From positions 525 to 64,524 of the forward strand of contig CAYRIU010000046.1 in the NCBI GenBank assembly GCA_964424615.1: DNA of 64,000 bases, written 5' to 3'. The position numbers and the translations under genes were made by a program. A model generated the notes under the pieces. That model was not told the origin of the DNA, searched no databases, and was given only the letters and a program-made list of their open reading frames with translations. Below, piece by piece: positions 1,172 through 42,976 of this stretch (positions are counted from its first letter, which is position 1; each line of letters opens with the position of its first letter). This stretch comes from an uncultured Gammaproteobacteria bacterium (GTDB taxonomy: Bacteria; Patescibacteriota; Patescibacteriia; UBA1558; GWA2-36-10).

Positions 1172-1777
1172 TTAATTAATAATAATTTTACCCTGACGCA
1201 AAACCTCCACTGCGCCTGCTTCTATTTTGATGATAGTAGAAGGTGGGGTCAATGGTAGATTGCCAGCATTGATCAATAAATCTGGCTGTATATCTAGGTG
1301 AGCAAATTGCTCTTTGATGTGATCCACGCTGTACAATGCCTCTCTACCAGATATATTGGCCGAAGTACTGACCAAGGGCATCTGACTGATACGAGTCAAT
1401 TTTTGACAAAAGGTATTACTAGAAATACGCAAACCCAAAGTCTCAGGAAAATATTTTTTCTGACCATAAAAGCGACAAGGTAAAACCATGGTCAAAGCAC
1501 CTGGCCAATATTTGGCAGCCAACTGCCTAGCCTGATCATCAAAAATTACCAATTTTTCAGCCATGGCTAAATCAGAGACAATAGCTGTCAAAAATTTATT
1601 CTCTGCCCGTTGTTTTATGGCATATACTTTGGCTACTGCCACATCACTAAAATAATCAGCGCCCAAACCATAGGCAGTCTCAGTAGGATAGACAATCACT
1701 CCCCCCGCAGCCAAAACCTTGACCGCCTCAGCAATTATCTCGTCTAAATTATTGTGCTGCAAAAATATTTCCCTCAT
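1172..1777 (-). CDS. tsaC: L-threonylcarbamoyladenylate synthase (TsaC/YrdC/Sua5 family).
   Basis: 201 aa with the VYPTETAYGLG motif typical of YrdC; TAA stop. Start overlaps the leuS stop by one base at 1777. Confidence 0.8.
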   Translation of the reverse strand: MREIFLQHNNLDEIIAEAVKVLAAGGVIVYPTETAYGLGADYFSDVAVAKVYAIKQRAENKFLTAIVSDLAMAEKLVIFDDQARQLAAKYWPGALTMVLPCRFYGQKKYFPETLGLRISSNTFCQKLTRISQMPLVSTSANISGREALYSVDHIKEQFAHLDIQPDLLINAGNLPLTPPSTIIKIEAGAVEVLRQGKIIIN

Positions 1778-2553
1778 TAGACCACTAAACTAATAATTTT
1801 ATTTTTGACGTAAATAAATTTTTTTACACTAGCACCATTCAAAGCTTGTTTGACTTTTTCCCTAGACAAAATTTGCTCCTGCAAATCGGTACTATCCTCT
1901 GTATCCAAAGGCAACTCAATGGTATCGCGTAGCTTGCCATTGATCTGAATACCGACGGTGATCAATTTATTTTGTAATAAAGCTTGATCAAACTTTGGCC
2001 ACTGAGCTTTCACAATACTATCTTGGTGACCAAGTTGTTGCCACAATTCTTCTGTGATATGTGGAGCAAAGGGGCTGAGCAAGATAATAAATTTTTCAAA
2101 AACATCCTGTGATACCTGCTCTAATTTATCAAAAGTATTCAACAAAATCATCAGCTGAGAAACTGCGGTATTAAAACGCATAGCCATGATATCATCGCCT
2201 ATTTTTTTGATACTCTGATGCAACAAGCGTTCTACTTCTTGGTCTAGCTGGACATCAGGAGCTATCCTGTCTTGCCAATCCCAAACTCTGTTCAAAAATC
2301 TGACCAAACCAGACACGCCTTTGTCATCCCAGGCCATCGACTGATCAAAAGGTCCCATGAACATGATATACATACGTAAAGCATCTGCCCCGTACTGCTT
2401 AACATAATCGTCTGGATTGACGACATTGCCACGAGATTTTGACATTTTGACACCACCACTACCCAAAATCATGCCTTGAGCAGTGCGCTTGCGATATGGC
2501 TCTGACCCTACTTCTTTTGGTATCGCGCCAATGTCATACAAAAACTTAAACAC
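1777..2553 (-). CDS. leuS: Leucyl-tRNA synthetase C-terminal portion (KMSKS and anticodon-binding domains). It is a GTG-initiated ORF in the same frame, 9 nt downstream of the TAG.
   Basis: FKFLYDIG...GMILG...KMSKSRGNVVNPDD is the canonical continuation of LeuRS after HLLYSRFW. The intervening 9 nt encode SRF in frame. Confidence 0.8.
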   Translation of the reverse strand: MFKFLYDIGAIPKEVGSEPYRKRTAQGMILGSGGVKMSKSRGNVVNPDDYVKQYGADALRMYIMFMGPFDQSMAWDDKGVSGLVRFLNRVWDWQDRIAPDVQLDQEVERLLHQSIKKIGDDIMAMRFNTAVSQLMILLNTFDKLEQVSQDVFEKFIILLSPFAPHITEELWQQLGHQDSIVKAQWPKFDQALLQNKLITVGIQINGKLRDTIELPLDTEDSTDLQEQILSREKVKQALNGASVKKFIYVKNKIISLVV

Positions 2554-2562
2554 AAAACGAGA

Positions 2563-4236
2563 CTACAAAAGGTGCAAAGTAGTATGATCATTGCCACCGT
2601 TGTACCAATCAACAGGTAGCCAATATTTGATTTTTTTTGGATCAGCTAGCTGCTTATCATTCTTGGCATCAGTATAGCGTATAAAATACCAATTTGAGCC
2701 AGCCCAATTTGGCATGGTGTCGGTTTCTCTCCTGGCTTCACCACCACATTTTGGACAAGTAGTCTTAGCCCAATCCTCTAGCTTGGCTAATGGTGACTGG
2801 CCTTCTGGACCTGGCTTGAAATCTTTGATATCTGGCAAGACTAGTGGCAAATCTTTTTCAGATAATGGCTGCCAATCACATTTACTACAATAAACCATAG
2901 GGATAGGCTCGCCCCAATATCTTTGTCTAGAAAATATCCAATCATGTAGACGATAGTTGACTGTCACTTTGCCAACTTTATTTTTTTGTAATAAATTCAA
3001 AATTTTTATCTTAAAATCATCGACAGTCAAACCAGTAAATTGACCAGAATTTATCATCACTCTACCATTGAGTGCCGGATAAGCCTCAACCGTAAGATCT
3101 CCTCCCTCTATCACTGGCACGATAGGTAGGTCATATTTTTTGGCAAACTCCCAATCCCTCTGATCATGAGCTGGTACAGCCATGATAGCTCCAGTGCCAT
3201 AGCCCATAGTCACATAGTCAGCTACAAAAATAGGTATTTCTTCTTTGCTGACAGGATTGATGGCTTTGAGGCCTTTTAGCTCCACACCAGTTTTATCTTT
3301 GGTGTTATCTGCTCTTTCTAGATCAGATTTTTTGGCAGCTTGATTGATATAGTCCTCTACTTCTGAAAAATTACTAATCTTATCAGCCAGCTGTCTGACT
3401 AGAAGATGCTCAGGAGCTACCACCATAAAAGTCACACCAAATAATGTATCTGGACGAGTAGTAAATACTTTTAATTTTTCGCCCGAATCACTCAGTGCAA
3501 AATCAATCTCTGCACCCTCAGAGCGACCGATCCAATTTCTCTGCTGAACTTTGATCTGCTCCAAAAAATCTACTTTATCCAAATCTTCAATCAAACGATC
3601 GGCATACTTGGTAATTCTCAAGAGCCACTGCTCTTTTTCTTTTTTCTCCACTGCACTACCACAACGCTCACAATTACCACTGATCACTTCTTCGTTGGCG
3701 AGTCCTATCAAACAAGAAGGGCACCAATTTATCTTTTCTTTGGCTTTGTAAGCTAAACCATTTTTCCACATTTGGATAAAAATCCACTGTGTCCAGTGAT
3801 AATAGCTTGGATCAGTAGTCTCCAAAAATCTAGACCAATCAAAACTATAGCCAACCAATCTTAACTGACGAATGTAATTATCAATATTTTTTCTAGTGGT
3901 CTCTTGGGGTGGGATATTTTTTTTGACTGCATAGTTTTCAGCTGGCAAACCAAAAGCATCCATACCCATAGGATAAAGAACATTCTTACCCAAAAAACGC
4001 TGATAACGAGCAATCACATCCATAGCAGTATAGGAGCGCAAATGACCAGCATGCAAGCCCTCGCCAGATGGATAAGGAAATTCTACTAAACCATAAAATT
4101 TCTCAGATCCCTGATCGGCTGATAAAAAAGTATTGTTTTCTTGCCAATATTTTTGCCACTTTGACTCTATTTTACTTGGCTGATATTTTGAAAATTTACC
4201 CATAATAATGCAAAAATTATGAAATAATTCTACCAT
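2563..4236 (-). CDS. leuS: Leucyl-tRNA synthetase, N-terminal 557-aa portion, ending ...HTTLHLL at an in-frame TAG (2563-2565).
   Basis: HIGH-type motif (HAGH), CP1 editing domain, Zn-finger-like CxxC pairs. The ORF stops at TAG exactly where LeuRS normally has Tyr in HLLY. Confidence 0.85.
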   Translation of the reverse strand: MVELFHNFCIIMGKFSKYQPSKIESKWQKYWQENNTFLSADQGSEKFYGLVEFPYPSGEGLHAGHLRSYTAMDVIARYQRFLGKNVLYPMGMDAFGLPAENYAVKKNIPPQETTRKNIDNYIRQLRLVGYSFDWSRFLETTDPSYYHWTQWIFIQMWKNGLAYKAKEKINWCPSCLIGLANEEVISGNCERCGSAVEKKEKEQWLLRITKYADRLIEDLDKVDFLEQIKVQQRNWIGRSEGAEIDFALSDSGEKLKVFTTRPDTLFGVTFMVVAPEHLLVRQLADKISNFSEVEDYINQAAKKSDLERADNTKDKTGVELKGLKAINPVSKEEIPIFVADYVTMGYGTGAIMAVPAHDQRDWEFAKKYDLPIVPVIEGGDLTVEAYPALNGRVMINSGQFTGLTVDDFKIKILNLLQKNKVGKVTVNYRLHDWIFSRQRYWGEPIPMVYCSKCDWQPLSEKDLPLVLPDIKDFKPGPEGQSPLAKLEDWAKTTCPKCGGEARRETDTMPNWAGSNWYFIRYTDAKNDKQLADPKKIKYWLPVDWYNGGNDHTTLHLL

Positions 4237-4258
4237 TTAGCTTAGCAAAAATCAACTT

Positions 4259-5719
4259 ATGACTAATTCCCACTCCTCGACAAAAAGACCTGATTATGAT
4301 ATAGTAGCTATTGCTAATAGTGCCTTATCAATAAGTTATAATATTATTAGTATATTCATCAAAAAGATATTTACCAGATTGGCTATCAAAATAGCTGATT
4401 TTTTGATTTGGTCAAAAAGAAAAATGCCATTTGTTTTTCGACCATTGTTTAAACTTATTTCACTAATACTCAAAATAATTTTTTTACCTTTTGTACTTTT
4501 GATTTATAAAAATATTGTTTTGATAAAAATAAAACTAAAGAATAAAAAAATAAAGGATACTGCCTTAATAATATTTATCCAAAAATATTTAGCTGGCACT
4601 GTCATTGCTCTCATCATCATAGGTACTACTACTAGCAATATCTTTGCCCAAAACTATAGTACTGATGAATACGCCCAAAAGACACTACTCTCTACTTTGG
4701 TAAAAAATGACTCAGCTAGCTGGAGTGAAATCATAGAGGAAAAAGCGCCTGTCGCTAGAGTAGTCACTAGTCCCAACTATATTGCTGGTACTGATGTACT
4801 ACAAGAACCGCTGAGCAACAATACTGGTAATAGCAATAGTGGTGAAATTATCACCCTATCACCAGACGCCACTAGCTTGGTCATGCTCAATTCTGATGAA
4901 GATATACTGGATGTGCCTGTGCCTGGTCGCACTGAAAACATAGACTATATAGTACAAGCTGGTGATACCTTGAGTGGTATTGCTCAAAAATTTGACATCA
5001 CAGTCAACACCATACTCTGGTCAAACAATCTAACATGGAATAGCACCATAAAGCCAGGCGTCAAACTAGTCATACTACCATCCTCTGGCTTGAGCTACAC
5101 CATACAAAAAGGAGACAACTTAGCGGCTGTTGCCAAAAAATATCAAGCTGATGTTGATAAAATATTAGCCTACAACAACCTAGACAGTGTCTCTGCTATC
5201 AAAGCTGGCAATACCATATTCATCCCTGATGGCATCAAGCCAACGCAAGTTGTCTCATCTTACAAGGCACCAAGCTTGGCTAGCCAACCAAAGCCTACTG
5301 CTAATACAGCTACCTATGGCGATGATGAGTTGCCTCCAGCTAGCGATCTATCAGCCAATACAAAATTCTTGTGGCCAACACTTAGCCACAGAATCACTCA
5401 ATACTTTAGTTGGGTACATACTGGTCTAGATATCGGCGACAAAGTCGGCAACCCAATCTACGCGGCGGATGATGGCAAGGTGCAGATATCTGGCTGGAAT
5501 AGTGGCGGTTATGGTAACTATGTAATCATCAACCATGGTAATGGTCTACATACTGTCTATGGACACGCTAGTAAACTTCTAGTAAAAACTGGCGAAGTAG
5601 TCACTCGTGGACAAGTGATAGCTCTCATAGGCTCCACTGGCAGATCAACCGGCCCACACTTGCACTTGGAAGTCAGGCTCAATGGTACTAGGAAAAATCC
5701 TATTAACTACATCAAATAA
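4259..5719 (+). CDS. Membrane-anchored LysM-repeat M23-family metallopeptidase. The annotated N-terminus may be over-extended; alternative start near MPFVF.
   Basis: Two LysM-like repeats (YIVQAGDTLSGIAQKF, YTIQKGDNLAAVAKKY) plus a C-terminal M23 domain (HTGLDI...GPHLHLEV). Confidence 0.8.
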   Translation: MTNSHSSTKRPDYDIVAIANSALSISYNIISIFIKKIFTRLAIKIADFLIWSKRKMPFVFRPLFKLISLILKIIFLPFVLLIYKNIVLIKIKLKNKKIKDTALIIFIQKYLAGTVIALIIIGTTTSNIFAQNYSTDEYAQKTLLSTLVKNDSASWSEIIEEKAPVARVVTSPNYIAGTDVLQEPLSNNTGNSNSGEIITLSPDATSLVMLNSDEDILDVPVPGRTENIDYIVQAGDTLSGIAQKFDITVNTILWSNNLTWNSTIKPGVKLVILPSSGLSYTIQKGDNLAAVAKKYQADVDKILAYNNLDSVSAIKAGNTIFIPDGIKPTQVVSSYKAPSLASQPKPTANTATYGDDELPPASDLSANTKFLWPTLSHRITQYFSWVHTGLDIGDKVGNPIYAADDGKVQISGWNSGGYGNYVIINHGNGLHTVYGHASKLLVKTGEVVTRGQVIALIGSTGRSTGPHLHLEVRLNGTRKNPINYIK

Positions 5720-5782
5720 AAAGCTAAAATAAAAATCACCCAAAGATTTATCAATGGGTGATTTTTTATTAAATTATATTCA

Positions 5783-6175
5783 TTAGCTCTGCAACCACAA
5801 CAACAAAATACCTAACCAAGAAACATTAAACAGTAAAAAGCTAAACCAAGGTTTGACATTGAATCTTTTATTGATCGGAATCACCAAAAAAGACCAAGCA
5901 ATCAACAAAAATAATATACCTAGGCTATTAATCCCGCGATCAATGTATATACCAGAAAAATAATATATCACCAAAACAAATAATATAGTATTAATCAAAG
6001 CAAAAACAGCAGCCACAATATCATATCGTGTCTGCATGTTTCTCTTGAGTAGATCCATACTCATTTCTAAAAATGTAGAAACAAAAAAATAAAAAAATAA
6101 ACTAACAAATATAGCCCAAAAAACAAAACTCAAATAATCACGATAATCTAGATAAAAATTTACTAGCCACAACAT
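5783..6175 (-). CDS. Hypothetical small integral membrane protein.
   Basis: 130 aa, about 4 hydrophobic helices, no recognisable motif. Confidence 0.4.
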   Translation of the reverse strand: MLWLVNFYLDYRDYLSFVFWAIFVSLFFYFFVSTFLEMSMDLLKRNMQTRYDIVAAVFALINTILFVLVIYYFSGIYIDRGINSLGILFLLIAWSFLVIPINKRFNVKPWFSFLLFNVSWLGILLLWLQS

Positions 6176-6270
6176 ATATTTATAAAATAATTATACCATA
6201 AAATCATTGCTTATCAAAAAACCAGATCACACTATAGGAGTTTGATCTGGCGGTAAATATTTATCAAAAA

Positions 6271-6735
6271 TTATGGTTTGACCACGGTCCAAAGATTATT
6301 GACATTCTGACCGTTGGTATCTCCGGGTTTTAAGTCTTTGACATAGAGATATAGAGGCTTACCCATATAGCTCACTTGTAAAGTTTTATCCTCTCTCTCA
6401 AAAGTTCCCAAGGCACCAGGAGCTGATTTATCAGCTAGACCATTGTGCAGGGTCAAAAATGGTGGCCAATTTTTAGCACATTCGCCAGTGCAGCTACTCT
6501 TACCGTTTTTATCAGTTTTGAACTGATAAAGAGTGCGACCTTGTTTATCAACCAAGAAAGATCCCAAGGTAGCATTACCACCGGTTTTTAAGAATACAAT
6601 TTTGGCATTCTTGACTTTATTTTCGTAGCTATTGCGAAGACCTGGTACTAGTGACCAGAGCAAAAAAGCTGCACCAACAAAAGCAAAGAACAAAGCCATT
6701 GTTTTCCAAAAATTAAATTTAACTTTTTTTGCCAT
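6271..6735 (-). CDS. Secreted protein/lipoprotein with Y-x-(F/W/Y)-x-x-D repeat motifs (COG4315-like).
   Basis: Signal peptide, repeated TLY.F..D..G motifs, and the CxxxCAxxWPP segment typical of this family. Confidence 0.55.
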   Translation of the reverse strand: MAKKVKFNFWKTMALFFAFVGAAFLLWSLVPGLRNSYENKVKNAKIVFLKTGGNATLGSFLVDKQGRTLYQFKTDKNGKSSCTGECAKNWPPFLTLHNGLADKSAPGALGTFEREDKTLQVSYMGKPLYLYVKDLKPGDTNGQNVNNLWTVVKP

Positions 6736-6886
6736 AAATATTTGTTTTAATTATTTATTTTTATAAAAGGATCGACCTTTCAACGTCGATAATATTATAA
6801 CATTTTTTTGAAAATAAAAAAATAGCTACCAATAGATAGCTATCTTTAATAACACATTACTAACAAAATTTTTATAATTTACTAAT

Positions 6887-7276
6887 CTATTCAGCCTTAA
6901 AATTTAAAGCTACCGAATTGATACAATATCTCTTGTGAGTAGGTTCTGGACCATCATCAAACACATGTCCCAAATGTGAGTCGCATCTAGCACACAAAAC
7001 TTCGGTGCGTTTCATGCCCAGAGAATCATCTGGACGCTCTATGATATAATTTTGGTCCAATGGTGAAAAATAGCTTGGCCAACCAGTGCCAGAATCAAAT
7101 TTGGCTTCCGAACGAAACAATGGTAAATCGCAAGCTGCACAATGATATGTGCCCAATTCTTGCTTTTCCCAAGCACATGAAAAGGGAGCCTCTGTACCAT
7201 GCTGACGCATGACGCTATACTGCTCCGGAGTCAATATAGCCTGCCATTCTGCTTCCGTTTTATTTATCTTATCCAT
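6887..7276 (-). CDS. msrB: Peptide-methionine (R)-S-oxide reductase MsrB.
   Basis: Two CxxC pairs, GTGWPSYF and RYCINS motifs. The stop codon is TAG, which shows TAG is used as a terminator in this genome. Confidence 0.9.
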   Translation of the reverse strand: MDKINKTEAEWQAILTPEQYSVMRQHGTEAPFSCAWEKQELGTYHCAACDLPLFRSEAKFDSGTGWPSYFSPLDQNYIIERPDDSLGMKRTEVLCARCDSHLGHVFDDGPEPTHKRYCINSVALNFKAE

Positions 7277-17025: not shown

Positions 17026-17102
17026 TGGTGGGCATAGATGGACTTGAACCATCGACCCCGACTTTATAAGAGTCGTGCTCTAACCGACTGAGCTATATGC
17101 CC
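17026..17102 (-). tRNA. tRNA with anticodon UAU, probably tRNA-Ile reading AUA; CCA encoded.
   Basis: Hand-folded: acceptor GGGCATA/TATGCCC, anticodon loop CTTATAA, T-arm GATGGTTCAAGTCCATC. Confidence 0.6.
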
Positions 17103-21238: not shown

Positions 21239-23077
21239 TTATGATTGTAATTTTATTTCAATTTGTTCCACTAATTTTTTCAACGATGGGAAATTTTCTT
21301 CAAAGGCACTTTTACTTGGAGAAAAATCGTCTGATATTTTATTTTTAAATTTTTCTATAATTATTTCATTAAATTTATTTTCTTTCTTTAGAAAAATTTT
21401 TATTTGCTCAATAAATGGAGCATCTGTTAACATTATCACACAGTCATCTAAAAACTCCTCTTTATAAAATTCTTTGAATTTGCTTTCTACAAAATCTTTT
21501 TCTAATAAATCTTCTATAGTACCTTCGTTCTTAAAGCTAGCTACTAAATCTCTAATGGTAAAAACAGAATTTTTATCATAAACGCCGGCAATTTTTAGAA
21601 TTTTATCCCTATATCCTTTTCCCTCCAAATCATCGTCAGTTACTACTAAAATTTTTATATCATCATAATTAAATTTAGTAGCAATTTGAACAATATTACT
21701 ACCAATTCCATTAGTAATACCGAATTGCAATCCTTTTAAATGCAATGATTTTTGTAATATTATTTTATCAGACTGCCCCTCAACAAGAATCCTGTGTGGT
21801 ATCAACAAATCTTTATAAACATTTATGCCAAATGCCAACTCCAATACTTCGTCATCCCTAAGATCCTCTTCACTTCTTATTTCTTTTTTTTCGGTTATTG
21901 CCGCATTATTTTTTCTAATAATTATATTTCTTTCTTTGGTTTTTTGATCTACTAAAAATGGGGAATGAGTAGAAATAAATACATAATTATCTTTACCTAT
22001 ACTTAATAACTGCTCTTTTAAATCCCTAATACCCGATGGATGTAGATGTGCCTCTGGTTCGTCGATGATAATTAGTTTATCTTTTTTCCTAAACTTTTCA
22101 GTTTCTATAGATAAGGACAAAATTAAAGACATAAACTGTTTGAAACCCTCACTTCTTACATTCATTTTATAAAAATTATGTTCATTTTTTTTACCATCAT
22201 CTACTATTGAGACATTACATTTCTTACTATCCGTTATTTCTATATCGATTTTAATTTTATGTTTCCATTTATTATTGATGTATTTTGTAGCCTCATCTGA
22301 CAGTGTTGTGCTCAGTTTTCTTCTTAAATTAAAATCCGAAGTACTGTCTATTTCTTTTTTTATCTTATCTTCCGTGTCATACCCAGCTAAAGCAAAAATG
22401 TTTTTAAGTGGTTTATTTTTATTTACATCTGCTTTAAATTCTTCTAAATTAACCTCCGTAATTAAATATTCGTCAGATGGCTTCCAAAAAGATGTCTGTG
22501 GTTCATACTTCTGAATTATGTCAATAATTTTATTTTCAAAATATTCTTTAAACACATCTTTTGTAAACTCTACATATGTATTCTGAATATCATTAAATTT
22601 ACTAACCTCATAAGACTTACTATTTATATTTTGACCATCAACATTATTAGTTATTAATTCTTTAATAAATATATTCTCCGTTATTTCCTCTATATTGAAA
22701 GTATATTCTACTTCAAAATGGTTTGCTCCTTCCTGCAAATACACATGCTTAACAATACTATTAATTTTAAAATTAAAAATTTTATCATTTAATATTTCTT
22801 TTTTTATTAAACTAGAATATGTTTCTACTTGTTCAAAACTTAAATAAAACCATAAATCAATGGGTTTTTTCTGTTCATCTTTTTGATTATGCATGTCATT
22901 ATAATCAAATTCTTCGTTAGGAACATTAAAAAAAGACATAGCCTGTAAAATATTACTTTTACCAGACTCATTAATTCCTAAAAACATGGTAGTATAACTA
23001 TTACCGTATTTCTTTACATCAAACTCAATATGTTGAATTGATTTAAAATTCTCAATAATAATTTTTGTAATCTTCAT
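21239..23077 (-). CDS. OLD-family ATP-dependent endonuclease, class 1 (N-terminal ABC-type ATPase fused to a C-terminal TOPRIM domain). Candidate anti-phage defence gene.
   Basis: Walker A GINESGKSN; ABC signature-like SEGFKQF; Walker B/H-loop LIIIDEPEAHLHP. TOPRIM motifs RILVEGQSDKIIL and VVTDDDLEGK. 612 aa. Extremely AT-rich coding sequence. Confidence 0.75.
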   Translation of the reverse strand: MKITKIIIENFKSIQHIEFDVKKYGNSYTTMFLGINESGKSNILQAMSFFNVPNEEFDYNDMHNQKDEQKKPIDLWFYLSFEQVETYSSLIKKEILNDKIFNFKINSIVKHVYLQEGANHFEVEYTFNIEEITENIFIKELITNNVDGQNINSKSYEVSKFNDIQNTYVEFTKDVFKEYFENKIIDIIQKYEPQTSFWKPSDEYLITEVNLEEFKADVNKNKPLKNIFALAGYDTEDKIKKEIDSTSDFNLRRKLSTTLSDEATKYINNKWKHKIKIDIEITDSKKCNVSIVDDGKKNEHNFYKMNVRSEGFKQFMSLILSLSIETEKFRKKDKLIIIDEPEAHLHPSGIRDLKEQLLSIGKDNYVFISTHSPFLVDQKTKERNIIIRKNNAAITEKKEIRSEEDLRDDEVLELAFGINVYKDLLIPHRILVEGQSDKIILQKSLHLKGLQFGITNGIGSNIVQIATKFNYDDIKILVVTDDDLEGKGYRDKILKIAGVYDKNSVFTIRDLVASFKNEGTIEDLLEKDFVESKFKEFYKEEFLDDCVIMLTDAPFIEQIKIFLKKENKFNEIIIEKFKNKISDDFSPSKSAFEENFPSLKKLVEQIEIKLQS

Positions 23078-35312: not shown

Positions 35313-36674
35313 TTACTTTACACAAGCTTTTAATCCTATTTGGGCATTACTTTCATAGGACAAAACTGTCAAATAATTGATATTTTTTTTCTGCAAAGCT
35401 TCTTTGATGGTGTCATTTTGTATTTTAGCAGTATTGACCTGAGCCAAATCGATGATTTGGTAATCCCCAGCTATCTGGCATCCTCCCAAATAGCTTTGGA
35501 TATTGTATTTACTCAGCAAAGTCGACTGTATCAGGGTCTCACTATTGGATAAATAGTAATATGCTCCGATCTGTGTGCCATAAAACTGGCCAAAATGCCA
35601 ATAGTCATACTGCTGATAATGCAAAGACTCTACCTCTGCACCCTCATCACTGACAAATTCGGTATATACAGTGCCATCTGGCAATCTATTTTTAGATTCT
35701 TTGACTTTGAGGTTTGGGACCCAATCATTGATACGAGATTGCCAGTCCACTGGACTGACCATTAGCCAATTATTGTGGGACAAATATATAAAATTATTCT
35801 TCAAAATCTGCTCCTCTATCTTTTGATCAGACAATCTATAATATGGCAATTCTGTAAATAGTGTTTGAATGATGTTTTGACTGACTACGCCCTGCCATTT
35901 ATCAGATTTGTGCTCACCAAAACCAAAAACCAGGTCAGCATTCAGGGGAAATTTAGCTTGATTGGGCCAAGCTACAGTGCTACTAGCATTGATCACCTGT
36001 CTTAGCTTGTCCTGCCAAATATGAACAGCTACTTGTCCATCCCTCTGCTTATATATATTGGCATAAATACTTGGCAGGCCATTGTCTAGTTGTAATAATT
36101 TTGTAAGATCAGCTAGAAAAATAGGGGCTTCATTTTTTGACCAAAAAATATTGACACCTACACCCAAATTATTAGTATCAAAATCTATTTTATCTTGTGT
36201 GGCATAGTGATTTGGCAGCCAATCATCAACGCTAAGCAACAAAACACCGTCATCAACCAATAAATAGCTGTATTCTGGTCTATTCGCTACTAGCCATTTG
36301 ACTGTTTCTTTACCTTTATCCAAGCGCAACAAAAAATTGTCATCACTAGAACCCCCCGTCTTAAACCAAATGACTTCTTGTGTGTTCAAAAAACCGTTTT
36401 GCAAGATTTTTTTCAATTCTGCAATCTTGGCAGTGGGCTCTTGGGTGTTTATAATCGATATTTGATCAATACCTAAATTTTCATAATAGCTAGGATCAGT
36501 CCAATTATAAAAAAACGTAGTATTGGCTGGCAAATACACTGCCAAAGGCTGACTAGATTTTCTAGTCCAGCTGATCATCACCACCACTCCCAGCAACAAA
36601 ACACCAAAAAAAAGCCACCAAGCTTTACTTGGTAAAAAAGTAAATTTAATTGGCAGCTTTTTTATTGTAACCAC
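35313..36674 (-). CDS. Hypothetical membrane-anchored secreted protein (453 aa).
   Basis: N-terminal TM anchor; W/Y-rich; no recognised domain. Confidence 0.35.
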   Translation of the reverse strand: MVTIKKLPIKFTFLPSKAWWLFFGVLLLGVVVMISWTRKSSQPLAVYLPANTTFFYNWTDPSYYENLGIDQISIINTQEPTAKIAELKKILQNGFLNTQEVIWFKTGGSSDDNFLLRLDKGKETVKWLVANRPEYSYLLVDDGVLLLSVDDWLPNHYATQDKIDFDTNNLGVGVNIFWSKNEAPIFLADLTKLLQLDNGLPSIYANIYKQRDGQVAVHIWQDKLRQVINASSTVAWPNQAKFPLNADLVFGFGEHKSDKWQGVVSQNIIQTLFTELPYYRLSDQKIEEQILKNNFIYLSHNNWLMVSPVDWQSRINDWVPNLKVKESKNRLPDGTVYTEFVSDEGAEVESLHYQQYDYWHFGQFYGTQIGAYYYLSNSETLIQSTLLSKYNIQSYLGGCQIAGDYQIIDLAQVNTAKIQNDTIKEALQKKNINYLTVLSYESNAQIGLKACVK

Positions 36675-40396: not shown

Positions 40397-41215
40397 ATGG
40401 AAAAAAATTCTTTAGCTAAATACAAATTATATTTAAAAAGTAAAGACTTGAAGCCCAGCACCATCAAAAATTATAGCTGGCATGTGGGGCAATTTTTGCT
40501 ATGGTCTGAAAATAAGTCCGCCAGAGGCGGGTCCGCCTCTGGCGGAAAAATAACCGCTCCCCTTTTAAAAAAATATAAAGAATTTTTACTAGCCAAACAA
40601 AAAAATATTGGTAGTATCAATCTACGCCTTATCATCATAAATAACTACCTACACTTTATTGGTATCAGATACTCTTTTGAGCTCCTGACTGAGCACAAAG
40701 ATAGACTAGCTGCTCTCACACCTTTGCAATTACAAAATTTTTTGGACCAACCCTTGAAAAAAAATAACCCTGTTGGTCACAGAGACAAAGCTTTATTAGA
40801 AATTTTATATGCTAGCGGTCTCAAGGTCAGCGACCTAGTCAATCTCCAAAAAAACCAAGTTGATTTTTTGAGTCGCGAAATAATACTAGACAAAAAACAC
40901 ATTACTCTACCACCCTATGCTCTGCACTATCTAGAAAAATATATTAATTTCAGAAAAGATAAAAGTCCTTGGCTATTTATAAACTTTGATCGCAGTAAAA
41001 AAGCTGGCGAAAAACCACTTTCTGTCCGCTCAGTCGAAAGAATGGTAGAAAAATATGCCTTGGCACTACGACCAAGACTAAAAATCACTCCCCAAATACT
41101 GCGCAACACCCTAGCCTACAATCTCAAAAGCCAAGGCGTGACTGGCTCTGGACTCAAAGAAGCTCTACACTTCAAAACAAAAGTAGGCGCCGGTAATTAT
41201 CTAAACAGATTATAA
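40397..41215 (+). CDS. Tyrosine site-specific recombinase (XerC/XerD/integrase family), with a GC-palindrome-encoded insertion SARGGSASGG in the N-terminal domain.
   Basis: Core-binding-like N-terminus; GLKVSDLVNLQ patch; C-terminal R...LRNT...H...Y arrangement. 272 aa. Confidence 0.65.
   Translation: MEKNSLAKYKLYLKSKDLKPSTIKNYSWHVGQFLLWSENKSARGGSASGGKITAPLLKKYKEFLLAKQKNIGSINLRLIIINNYLHFIGIRYSFELLTEHKDRLAALTPLQLQNFLDQPLKKNNPVGHRDKALLEILYASGLKVSDLVNLQKNQVDFLSREIILDKKHITLPPYALHYLEKYINFRKDKSPWLFINFDRSKKAGEKPLSVRSVERMVEKYALALRPRLKITPQILRNTLAYNLKSQGVTGSGLKEALHFKTKVGAGNYLNRL
40517..40546 (+). repeat. Perfect 14-bp-stem GC palindrome (TCCGCCAGAGGCGG-GT-CCGCCTCTGGCGGA) inserted in frame within the recombinase ORF.
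   Basis: Self-complementary 30-mer of the CCGCCA-N-TGGCGG family. It encodes SARGGSASGG without breaking the frame. Confidence 0.65.
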
Positions 41216-41686: not shown

Positions 41687-42976
41687 TTAGCTATCCCTCA
41701 AATAACCCCAAGTGTTGAGCTTGTCACTATCTTCATACCAACGATCACCAATATCAGTGCGATAATACATATTGGGTATCATCAGATTGCCGACACGATT
41801 GTAGACGTGCTTTTGGGCTTGCTTCATAGTCAAACCACTACCCGTGATAGTCAATACTACACCTGCCTCACCAGCCACCAACCACTCGCCCTTTTCCATT
41901 TTAGCATCTTCAAAATGCACACCGTCATAATGTGGCTTGCGAAAAAGGATCACGGCGTTTTTGGAAAAAGAATCAAAAGTTGCTGGATCAACAAATGGAT
42001 ATTGAGGCACTATGATCATGACGCCAATCTGAAAACCTTTTTTGGTCTTGATGACAAAATCTTCTCCCGCCGCCATCTTATAAAAAAATTCTCCCATAGG
42101 CATAGCCACACCTTCTTGTTGGATAAAAATAGTAGGGTAGCCAAAACGAGAAGTAAATTCCAAAGGATAGATGCCATTACCATTGACTATACAATTGATA
42201 TCTATATAGCCGACAAAATGCTCCTCGGCTAGTTTGGTTTCCAATTTCTTTAAAGTAGCGTTAAATATTTTGTTGGGCTGACTCCAAAACATACTAGTAC
42301 CCATCTCACCAGTAGATGGTCCCAAATTACCAGGGAATAATTTTTTGTGTTCAAAATTGACATTGATGGGATTCAAAAATTTCTGCCCATTAAAAAAAGC
42401 CCCAATAGCCACCTCTACACCAACTACTCTTTTTTGCAATTGTAACTCAGCTACCTGCTCTGAAAAAACCTTTTTATAGGCCTCAAGCATATGCAAGACA
42501 TCTTGACCATCCTCCTCTTCTCCGATGAATAAAAAAGATTTTGAAACATGAGACTCACCGCTAGATTTGATCACATAGCGACCTGGATTTTTTTTCACAA
42601 AATCAATAGCTTGATCAAAAGAGGTAAATATCTGATAAGGGATGATAGCTATACCAACTTTTTTCATCTCTTCTTGACCAAAGCTACGATCATCTTCTAG
42701 CTTGTCTGTATAGCTAGTACCGCCTATGACTAATTTACCTTTTTTCCTCAGACCCTCAGCTATAGCACCCTGTCCCAAGGTATCATCAAAAACAATCACA
42801 TCGGCCCAGTCTACCCAGTCCTCCCACTTATCGATACGATCTACAAAACCAGTGCCAATGTCGGCAGAGTTTTTATCGCTGATATAGACTTTGACTTGAT
42901 TACCCTCCTTGGCTATGAGCCAAGCGATATCGCACAATAGACCTTCGATACTGATAAATAAAAACTTTTTACCCAT
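41687..42976 (-). CDS. ATP-grasp enzyme of the PurD (phosphoribosylamine-glycine ligase) family, divergent N-terminus.
   Basis: EFTSRFGYPT aligns with EFNCRFGDPE. The C-terminal KQAQKHVYNRV...YRTDIG aligns with the PurD C-domain. 429 aa. Confidence 0.5.
   Translation of the reverse strand: MGKKFLFISIEGLLCDIAWLIAKEGNQVKVYISDKNSADIGTGFVDRIDKWEDWVDWADVIVFDDTLGQGAIAEGLRKKGKLVIGGTSYTDKLEDDRSFGQEEMKKVGIAIIPYQIFTSFDQAIDFVKKNPGRYVIKSSGESHVSKSFLFIGEEEDGQDVLHMLEAYKKVFSEQVAELQLQKRVVGVEVAIGAFFNGQKFLNPINVNFEHKKLFPGNLGPSTGEMGTSMFWSQPNKIFNATLKKLETKLAEEHFVGYIDINCIVNGNGIYPLEFTSRFGYPTIFIQQEGVAMPMGEFFYKMAAGEDFVIKTKKGFQIGVMIIVPQYPFVDPATFDSFSKNAVILFRKPHYDGVHFEDAKMEKGEWLVAGEAGVVLTITGSGLTMKQAQKHVYNRVGNLMIPNMYYRTDIGDRWYEDSDKLNTWGYLRDS

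What the first reader, a model, noticed from the sequence alone, without database searches (positions are those of the whole stretch)
1777..4236. leuS interrupted by a single in-frame TAG at the conserved Tyr of HLLY, just upstream of KMSKS
The two adjacent minus-strand ORFs are one LeuRS reading frame. The sequence reads ...HTTLHLL-TAG-SRF-V(GTG)FKFLYDIG..., where canonical LeuRS has HLLYSRFW.KFLYDLG.

A one-base change (TAY to TAG) replaces the Tyr codon and splits the enzyme about 25 residues before KMSKS. This is essentially the position where Aquifex aeolicus LeuRS is naturally split into alpha and beta subunits that reassemble.

TAG is a genuine stop elsewhere in the window (msrB ends with TAG), so whole-genome TAG reassignment is unlikely. 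Several explanations remain. One is a functional split LeuRS, with the C-piece re-initiating at GTG 9 nt downstream. A second is programmed readthrough or a suppressor tRNA. A third is a recent nonsense mutation. A fourth is a sequencing error. leuS is essential, so a dead pseudogene is improbable unless a second copy exists.
Basis: partly seen in the sequence, partly recalled or inferred. Interest (0 to 1): 0.6.

Follow-up and report, generated by a model that had tools for sequence, protein, structure and literature searches.

The report
Assembly artefact stop codon in leuS

Summary
The minus-strand leuS (4203..1777) carries one in-frame TAG at 2565-2563, at the Tyr of HLLY, and it is the only TAG-broken gene in the window.

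The interpretation as a split enzyme does not hold:
- **Intact sister copy.** Another assembly of the same population (L001, 99.86% identical over 5.7 kb) reads TAT and encodes an intact 808-aa LeuRS. All 119 other top homologues have Tyr there.
- **Contig breaks at the site.** In the sample that matches the window best (SRR6837549 / ERZ27282891), both upstream contigs stop at 2585 with wild-type GAA at 2587. The MEGAHIT downstream contig starts at 2554.
- **One aberrant source.** The only other sequence with TAG is the first 78 nt of a Logan contig. That tip has five mismatches in 67 nt.
- **Mosaic.** The window is wild type down to 2588 and matches that tip from 2587 on.
- **Noise-like variation.** Differences among assemblies of this population are 26/32 nonsynonymous and 19/32 transversions, and most are private to one assembly.

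TAG ends about 14 other genes, and the window has no tRNA(CUA). The Aquifex split lies in the leucine-specific domain, which this LeuRS lacks.

Verdict: assembly artefact, low interest. Read pile-ups could not be checked.

The parts
1777..4203 (-). leuS, bacterial-type leucyl-tRNA synthetase. It would be 808 aa if codon 547 were Tyr. Its TAA stop overlaps the ATG of the downstream Sua5/TsaC-like gene (TAATG at 1777-1779).
   Evidence: The homologues P0001-P0003 are 808 aa and start MGKF.
2563..2565 (-). In-frame TAG at codon 547, the Tyr of HLLYSRF. The sister assembly L001 has TAT.
   Evidence: Tyr is present in 119/119 homologues.
2587..2589 (-). Codon 539 is GAT (Asp) in place of GAA (Glu) of the invariant GGxEH motif. 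It is linked to the TAG on the aberrant haplotype. It is contradicted by L001 and by both upstream contigs of the best-matching sample (L096, L097).
   Evidence: Glu is present in 119/119 homologues.
2555..2584 (.). A 30-nt stretch with no wild-type contig support in sample SRR6837549/ERZ27282891. The upstream contigs L096 and L097 end at 2585, and the MEGAHIT downstream contig L006 starts at 2554. The TAG lies inside this stretch.
2554..2640 (.). Mosaic segment. The window equals the wild-type contigs from 2640 down to 2588, and equals the tip of Logan contig L005 from 2587 downwards. That tip also differs from the window at 2629, 2619 and 2613. The two haplotypes share only 25 identical nt (2612-2588), which is shorter than Logan's k of 31.
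2335..2337 (-). Codon 623 is ATG (Met), where five other assemblies have ATT (Ile). This change is private to the window.
   Evidence: The position is I, A or V and never M in 117 homologues.
2551..2553 (-). GTG (Val551 of the intact protein), the first possible restart codon after the TAG. No evolved start signal can be inferred.
   Evidence: Shine-Dalgarno motifs are almost absent window-wide (1/51), so the lack of one here is uninformative.
2434..2448 (-). KMSKS motif, 39 residues after codon 547. It is preceded by QGMIL-GSGG-V, so there is no leucine-specific domain.

Best explanation
The TAG is not the sequence of this organism's working leuS. The population's gene is intact, with TAT (Tyr) at codon 547.

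The organism is a low-coverage Patescibacteria (CPR) population. In the source sample, normal reads left a hole of about 30 nt (2555-2584). The only molecule(s) spanning the hole came from an aberrant, mismatch-laden fragment with five transversions in 67 nt, including GAA>GAT and TAT>TAG. The assembler joined the wild-type path to this fragment through a 25-nt identical stretch. That produced a mosaic contig with a premature stop.

Shown here:
- the intact allele in a sister assembly;
- contig breaks on both sides of the site in two assemblers;
- the aberrant tip;
- the mosaic structure;
- the noise-like spectrum of all inter-assembly differences.

Inferred:
- the window's MAG was built from that sample's reads;
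- the aberrant haplotype is one library fragment read by both mates or by duplicates. It is either a technical lesion or a rare non-viable variant.
For: 1. L001 (ENA ERZ27282907) is collinear with window 7223..1510. It shows 8 mismatches in 5714 nt and reads GAA...TAT, giving an intact 808-aa LeuRS.
2. E539 and Y547 are invariant in 119/119 homologues, and I623 is never M. The window is the derived state at 6 of 7 sites that can be polarised against the outgroup L002.
3. Logan contigs of SRR6837549 are 100% identical to the window over 3.8 and 5.3 kb (L089, L092), so this is the best-matching sample. In it, L096 (Logan) and L097 (MEGAHIT) both end at 2585 with wild-type GAA. L006 starts at 2554. 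L005 starts at 2640, and its tip differs from the wild-type sequence at 2629, 2619, 2613, 2587 and 2563.
4. The window's other private mismatch cluster (41990-42018) also falls in a gap between SRR6837549 Logan contigs (L092 ends at 42171, L098 starts at 41771). Four other assemblies contradict it.
5. Across about 24 kb covered by other assemblies there are 32 variable sites. Of these, 26 are nonsynonymous (random expectation about 77%), 19 are transversions, one is nonsense (random expectation 4.4%), and most are private to one assembly. This means no selection has acted on them.
6. SPAdes contigs of this population report coverage of about 7.5x.
7. TAG is a normal terminator here, and there is no other TAG-broken gene and no tRNA(CUA) in the window.
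Against: - No reads could be inspected.
- Logan discards 31-mers seen only once per run (PMC12424806). The TAG haplotype was therefore seen at least twice in SRR6837549 and is not a lone base-calling error.
- Only one assembly (L001) actually reads through the site with TAT. At 2563 itself the wild type is unobserved in the best-matching sample.
- The link between the window's MAG and SRR6837549 is inferred from identity. The window also has private alleles (2335, 5551) absent from that run's contigs.
Confidence: 0.85

Rival explanations
1. A real, recent nonsense mutation that is dominant in the strain of this sample. Under this reading leuS is newly inactivated, and the cell survives through a second leuS elsewhere or is a dying lineage.
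For: The TAG haplotype is supported by at least two observations of each 31-mer in SRR6837549. Wild-type sequence at 2563 is not seen in that sample. The window's leuS also carries E539D and I623M at conserved positions, as a decaying gene might.
Against: - The TAG is linked to GAT at 2587, and the main contigs of the same sample from two assemblers have GAA there. The TAG haplotype is therefore a minority one.
- That haplotype carries three more mismatches that even the window lacks.
- I623M is absent from the TAG-bearing contig L005, so the three lesions are not on one haplotype.
- There is no second leuS in the window.
- CPR genomes normally have one leuS (general knowledge).
Confidence: 0.08
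2. A functional two-piece LeuRS. The N piece (546 aa) would end at TAG, the C piece would restart at GTG 2553 by termination-reinitiation, and the pieces would assemble as in Aquifex aeolicus alpha-beta LeuRS.
For: A GTG lies 9 nt after the stop. This organism starts genes without Shine-Dalgarno motifs, so a restart cannot be excluded on sequence grounds. A split LeuRS exists in nature (PMC3643597).
Against: - No relative is split: 0 of 119 homologues, and the closest relatives' loci (L009, L010; 85% and 76% identity) match across residues 1-808.
- The same population has the intact gene.
- The break is in the invariant core helix HLLYSRF and would drop Y-S-R-F.
- It is not in the leucine-specific domain where Aquifex is split, and this enzyme lacks that domain.
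- The flanking sequence is identical to the intact allele, so nothing has adapted to a split.
Confidence: 0.03
3. Programmed decoding of this TAG, for example by an amber-suppressor tRNA-Tyr(CUA) that would restore the exact wild-type protein, or by TAG reassignment.
For: TAT>TAG at a Tyr codon is exactly what a supF-like suppressor would rescue (general knowledge). The rest of the genome was not available to search.
Against: - TAG terminates about 14 well-defined ORFs in the window.
- No other gene has an in-frame TAG.
- None of the six tRNAs in the window has a CUA anticodon.
- The sister assembly has TAT.
Confidence: 0.02

Closest known systems
Consensus or mosaic errors in low-coverage metagenome-assembled genomes (spurious nonsense 'pseudogenes')
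   Same: A single-base stop in an essential, otherwise perfectly conserved gene. It is not reproduced in a sister assembly. It lies at a contig break of other assemblers. It is accompanied by other private, unselected-looking substitutions.
   Different: The aberrant haplotype was seen at least twice in one run (Logan's k-mer filter). It therefore reflects an aberrant library molecule or a rare variant rather than a lone base-call error.
Aquifex aeolicus heterodimeric alpha-beta LeuRS
   Same: The enzyme would be cut between the HLLY helix region and KMSKS in linear sequence, giving a large N piece and a smaller C piece that carries KMSKS and the anticodon-binding domain.
   Different: Aquifex is split inside its very large leucine-specific domain, a peripheral insertion (PMC3643597). 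This LeuRS has no such domain (GSGG linker). The stop is about 33 residues upstream, in an invariant core helix. The split is not conserved in any relative.
Mycoplasma mobile LeuRS (PDB 3ZIU), which lacks the leucine-specific domain
   Same: The region before KMSKS is QGMIL-GSGG-VKMSKS here and QGMIL-GKDG-QKMSKS in M. mobile. In both, the leucine-specific domain is replaced by a tetrapeptide-like linker.
   Different: This enzyme keeps a full CP1 editing domain (PF13603), which M. mobile lacks (PMC3643597).

Membership tests
Bacterial-type leucyl-tRNA synthetase (class Ia, leuS) | Class I catalytic core with a HIGH-type motif and KMSKS | tested here: met
   PF00133 matches both pieces. The HAGH variant (…GEGLHAGH…) and KMSKS are read directly.
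Bacterial-type leucyl-tRNA synthetase (class Ia, leuS) | LeuRS CP1 editing domain and C-terminal anticodon-binding domain | tested here: met
   PF13603 (E = 1.9e-65) in the N piece and PF08264 in the C piece. The protein is 83% identical to intact 808-aa homologues.
Naturally split alpha-beta LeuRS (Aquifex type) | Split located within the leucine-specific domain | tested here: not met
   The leucine-specific domain is absent, as shown by alignment to T. thermophilus 1H3N and M. mobile 3ZIU. The stop is in the HLLYSRF helix. The position of the Aquifex split is taken from PMC3643597.
Naturally split alpha-beta LeuRS (Aquifex type) | Split conserved in related genomes, as two genes | tested here: not met
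   119/119 homologues have Tyr at this position and are single proteins. The same population has an intact allele.
Naturally split alpha-beta LeuRS (Aquifex type) | Both pieces are made and assemble into an active enzyme | not testable with these tools
   This needs proteomics or biochemistry.
TAG reassignment or amber suppression | In-frame TAG at sense positions in many genes, with TAG depleted as a terminator | tested here: not met
   There is one TAG-broken ORF pair only. TAG ends 17 of the 60 ORFs of 120 aa or more listed; about 14 of those are well-defined genes.
TAG reassignment or amber suppression | A tRNA with a CUA anticodon | tested here: inconclusive
   None is found among the six tRNAs of the window. 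The rest of the genome was not available.
Assembly or consensus artefact | Allele not reproduced by independent assemblies of the same population | tested here: met
   L001 has TAT and GAA. L096 and L097 have GAA. Five assemblies have ATT at 2335.
Assembly or consensus artefact | Site coincides with a coverage or graph break and with linked mismatches | tested here: met
   Contig ends fall at 2585 (two assemblers), 2554 and 2640. The tip has five mismatches in 67 nt. The window has a mosaic structure.
Assembly or consensus artefact | Minority or low-quality read support at the base | not testable with these tools
   No read access is available.

The most novel reading that the evidence does not exclude
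A real subpopulation of this CPR bacterium carries an amber allele of its only leuS. It survives by making LeuRS in two pieces (termination at TAG, restart at the GTG 9 nt downstream) or through a tRNA-Tyr amber suppressor.
Probability: 0.03. Interest if true: 0.6.

Novelty: not a real feature. Interest (0 to 1): 0.06.

Why it matters
As biology it does not matter: the organism has an ordinary, intact LeuRS.

It matters as a caution. Low-coverage MAG contigs can carry mosaic stretches from aberrant fragments, and these create fake pseudogenes or "split" essential genes. This contig shows roughly 0.5 such private substitutions per kb where it could be checked. Other oddities in it should therefore be checked against sister assemblies before being believed.

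Tried and rejected
- **JGI metagenome scans.** Two exact-pattern scans around the site found nothing.
- **Genome collection.** A scan of the GTDB-representative genome collection with the LeuRS did not contain the window's own genome. I could not look there for a second leuS or name the assembly.
- **Junction fragment search.** A protein search with a 219-aa fragment centred on the junction returned no further fragments from this population.
- **N-piece look-up.** An exact look-up of the window's N piece found no record.
- **Sample identity.** A literature search for the run and sample identifiers found nothing.
- **Diversity-generating retroelement.** Rejected as the cause of the mismatch cluster, because the ancestral bases at the five sites are C, C, G, A and T rather than all A.
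- **Illumina phasing error.** Rejected by reading the sequence: at 2563 the + strand has A miscalled as C, flanked by A and T, so the miscalled base matches neither neighbour.
- **Shine-Dalgarno test.** Uninformative as a test of the GTG restart, because only 1 of 51 genes has such a motif.
- **C-terminal LeuRS ORFs elsewhere.** I checked whether short C-terminal LeuRS ORFs in other genomes are natural splits. The one examined (P0200) is a lone remnant; an ISL3 transposase lies about 1 kb away.
Full report
**Observation.** The minus strand between 4236 and 1777 holds two adjacent ORFs in one frame, separated by a single TAG at 2565-2563. The sequence reads CAT ACT ACT TTG CAC CTT TTG TAG TCT CGT TTT GTG, which translates to HTTLHLL*SRFV.
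- Pfam places the class I catalytic domain and the LeuRS editing domain in the upstream piece. It places the end of the catalytic domain plus the anticodon-binding domain in the downstream piece.
- An intact homologue aligns to 4203..1780 in one tblastn segment.
- A scan of all six frames finds no other pair of long in-frame ORFs separated by a TAG.
- TAG ends about 14 other well-defined ORFs, including msrB.
- The window's six tRNAs include none with a CUA anticodon.

Two details need correcting. The start is probably the ATG at 4203 (all close homologues begin MGKF). KMSKS (2448-2434) begins 39 residues after the Tyr, not about 25.

**Relatives.** A protein search with the joined sequence gave more than 100 Patescibacteria LeuRS proteins of about 800-970 aa, all uninterrupted.
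- The top hit, P0001, is 808 aa and differs from the joined window protein at only two residues besides the Tyr.
- The window's own N piece appears as a lone 546-aa entry from a 64,828-nt NCBI contig (P0019).
- In 119 of 119 homologues the residues equivalent to E539 (GGxEH) and Y547 (HLLY) are Glu and Tyr. Position 623 is I, A or V and never M.
- A scan of species-representative genomes found relatives of 85% identity or less. The closest ones match across the full protein. The window's own genome was not in that collection.

**The sister allele.** P0001 is encoded on an ENA contig (L001, ERZ27282907) that is collinear with window 7223..1510. It has 8 mismatches in 5714 nt and no gaps.
- All 8 mismatches are nonsynonymous and 6 are transversions.
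- Against the outgroup L002 (83% identical LeuRS, syntenic), the window carries the derived state at 6 of 7 polarisable sites.
- Three of the mismatches are in leuS: GAA>GAT (E539D, 2587), TAT>TAG (Y547*, 2563) and ATT>ATG (I623M, 2335).

**Other assemblies of the same population.** Exact look-ups of neighbouring window proteins brought in contigs from Logan (SRR6837549, SRR6837552, SRR6837554, SRR6837555), ENA (ERZ27282891, ERZ27282906, ERZ27282907, ERZ27282915, ERZ17987007) and JGI (3300015606).
- Logan contigs of SRR6837549 are 100% identical to the window over 3.8 kb and 5.3 kb (L089, L092). This sample is the window's closest match.
- SPAdes contig names give a coverage of about 7.5x for this population.
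- Contigs in most samples are only 1-6 kb long, as expected for low coverage.

**What happens at the TAG in that sample**.
- The upstream contigs of both assemblers, L096 (Logan, k = 31) and L097 (MEGAHIT, k141), end at exactly the same base, 2585. Both carry wild-type GAA at 2587.
- The downstream MEGAHIT contig L006 begins at 2554.
- The downstream Logan contig L005 begins at 2640. Its first 78 nt differ from the wild-type sequence at 2629, 2619, 2613, 2587 (GAT) and 2563 (TAG). That is five transversions in 67 nt, denser towards the contig end.
- The TAG therefore lies in a 30-nt stretch (2555-2584) with no wild-type contig support in this sample. The only sequence crossing that stretch is a mismatch-laden tip.
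- The window equals the wild-type contigs down to 2588 and equals the L005 tip from 2587 on. The two haplotypes share just 25 identical nt between 2613 and 2587. That is too short for Logan's k of 31 but long enough for an assembler using a smaller k.
- No other assembly shows the window's exact sequence over 2554-2640, so it is a mosaic.
- The TAG is physically linked to GAT at 2587, and the main contigs of the same sample contradict GAT. The TAG-bearing molecule is therefore a minority haplotype there.
- The third leuS change (2335) is absent from L005 itself and from four other assemblies. The three lesions are not on one haplotype.

**A second example.** The window's other private cluster comprises four changes in 29 nt at 41990-42018. 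It falls in the 400-nt gap between two SRR6837549 Logan contigs (L092 ends at 42171, L098 starts at 41771). All four other assemblies that cover it contradict the window.

**Spectrum of all differences.** Over about 24 kb of the window covered by at least one other assembly, there are 32 variable sites.
- 26 are nonsynonymous, 19 are transversions and one is nonsense. Most are private to a single assembly, and they cluster in short patches.
- For random substitutions in these genes I computed 78% nonsynonymous and 4.4% nonsense overall (85% nonsynonymous for transversions, 66% for transitions).
- For the first 21 sites, the probability of seeing at least 19 nonsynonymous is 0.16 under randomness. 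It is below 1e-4 if only half of surviving changes were nonsynonymous.
- The variation therefore shows no trace of purifying selection and has a roughly random transition-to-transversion ratio. That is the signature of technical noise or of mutations never exposed to selection, not of evolved strain differences.
- One patch (35389-35604) is made only of transitions and includes synonymous changes. It may be real strain variation.

**A caveat on "sequencing error".** Logan discards 31-mers seen only once in a run and ignores base qualities (PMC12424806).
- The aberrant tip was therefore seen at least twice in SRR6837549.
- The simplest reading is inference: one library fragment read by both overlapping mates or by duplicates. 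This would also explain why contigs of two assemblers end at identical bases, at fragment ends.
- Whether that fragment was damaged or mis-copied in the library, or came from a rare and probably non-viable cell, cannot be decided without reads.
- Either way it is not the population's leuS.

**Comparison with split LeuRS.** The Aquifex aeolicus alpha-beta enzyme is split inside its unusually large leucine-specific domain (PMC3643597).
- Alignment to T. thermophilus LeuRS (1H3N) and M. mobile LeuRS (3ZIU) shows that the present enzyme has no leucine-specific domain.
- QGMIL is followed by GSGG-V-KMSKS here, like the GKDG linker of M. mobile. T. thermophilus has about 55 extra residues at that point.
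- The TAG lies about 33 residues upstream of that point, inside the invariant HLLYSRF helix of the Rossmann fold.
- A restart at the GTG would also lose Y-S-R-F.
- Shine-Dalgarno motifs are almost absent in this window (1 of 51 starts). The lack of one before the GTG says nothing either way.
- Nothing around the stop differs from the intact allele, so there is no sign of adaptation to a split.

**Verdict.** The stop codon is really in the deposited sequence. It is best explained as an assembly mosaic that imported an aberrant minority fragment across a coverage hole (confidence about 0.85). The residual possibilities are:
- a truly dominant recent nonsense allele in that sample (about 0.08);
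- a functional two-piece enzyme (about 0.03);
- suppression of the TAG (about 0.02).

The decisive test is a read pile-up at 2563-2629 in SRR6837549 and its sibling runs.

Noticed in passing
window 6371-6453, 5551-5580, 41990-42018: There are short patches of clustered, mostly nonsynonymous transversions that differ between assemblies of the same population. In 5551-5580, three different assemblies each have a different private change within 30 nt. The cause is unknown: recurrent error hot spots, aberrant fragments or real local hypermutation.
   Followed up: partly
window 35389-35604: Five transitions (two synonymous) separate the window from the SRR6837549 Logan contig L098. Unlike the other patches, this one looks like genuine strain variation.
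   Followed up: partly
window 17026-17102: A tRNA-Ile with anticodon UAU. This is an uncommon way to read AUA in bacteria, in place of a lysidine-modified CAU tRNA. I did not check whether tilS is absent.
   Followed up: no
window, all gene starts: Only 1 of 51 long ORFs has a Shine-Dalgarno core of 4 nt or more upstream. Leaders are A/T-rich, and ATG strongly dominates as the start codon. This suggests translation initiation that does not depend on Shine-Dalgarno pairing in this Patescibacteria lineage.
   Followed up: partly
window 2434-2470 (leuS residues 576-590): This LeuRS lacks the leucine-specific domain (QGMIL-GSGG-VKMSKS), like M. mobile LeuRS, but it keeps a full CP1 editing domain.
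   Followed up: partly
homologues P0007, P0014-P0016, P0042, P0055-P0058, P0071: Many related Patescibacteria (Komeilibacteria-like) LeuRS proteins are 950-1150 aa. They carry an extra NUDIX domain (PF00293), alpha/beta-hydrolase domains, or both, apparently fused to the synthetase.
   Followed up: no
L101 3001-4086 (GCA_900198705.1, FZPS01000018.1): A lone 361-aa C-terminal LeuRS fragment sits directly after an aldolase gene, with an ISL3 transposase about 1 kb upstream, in a 4.4-Mb contig. It looks like a gene remnant, not a split enzyme.
   Followed up: partly
window 1775-1779: The leuS stop and the start of the downstream Sua5/TsaC-like gene overlap (TAATG). This implies translational coupling of the two genes, and the arrangement is conserved in the relative L002.
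   Followed up: no
window 21239-23077 and 40397-41215: An AAA_15/AbiEii-like ATPase (612 aa) and a phage-type integrase next to a cytochrome b5-like gene. These may be defence or mobile-element islands. They were not examined.
   Followed up: no
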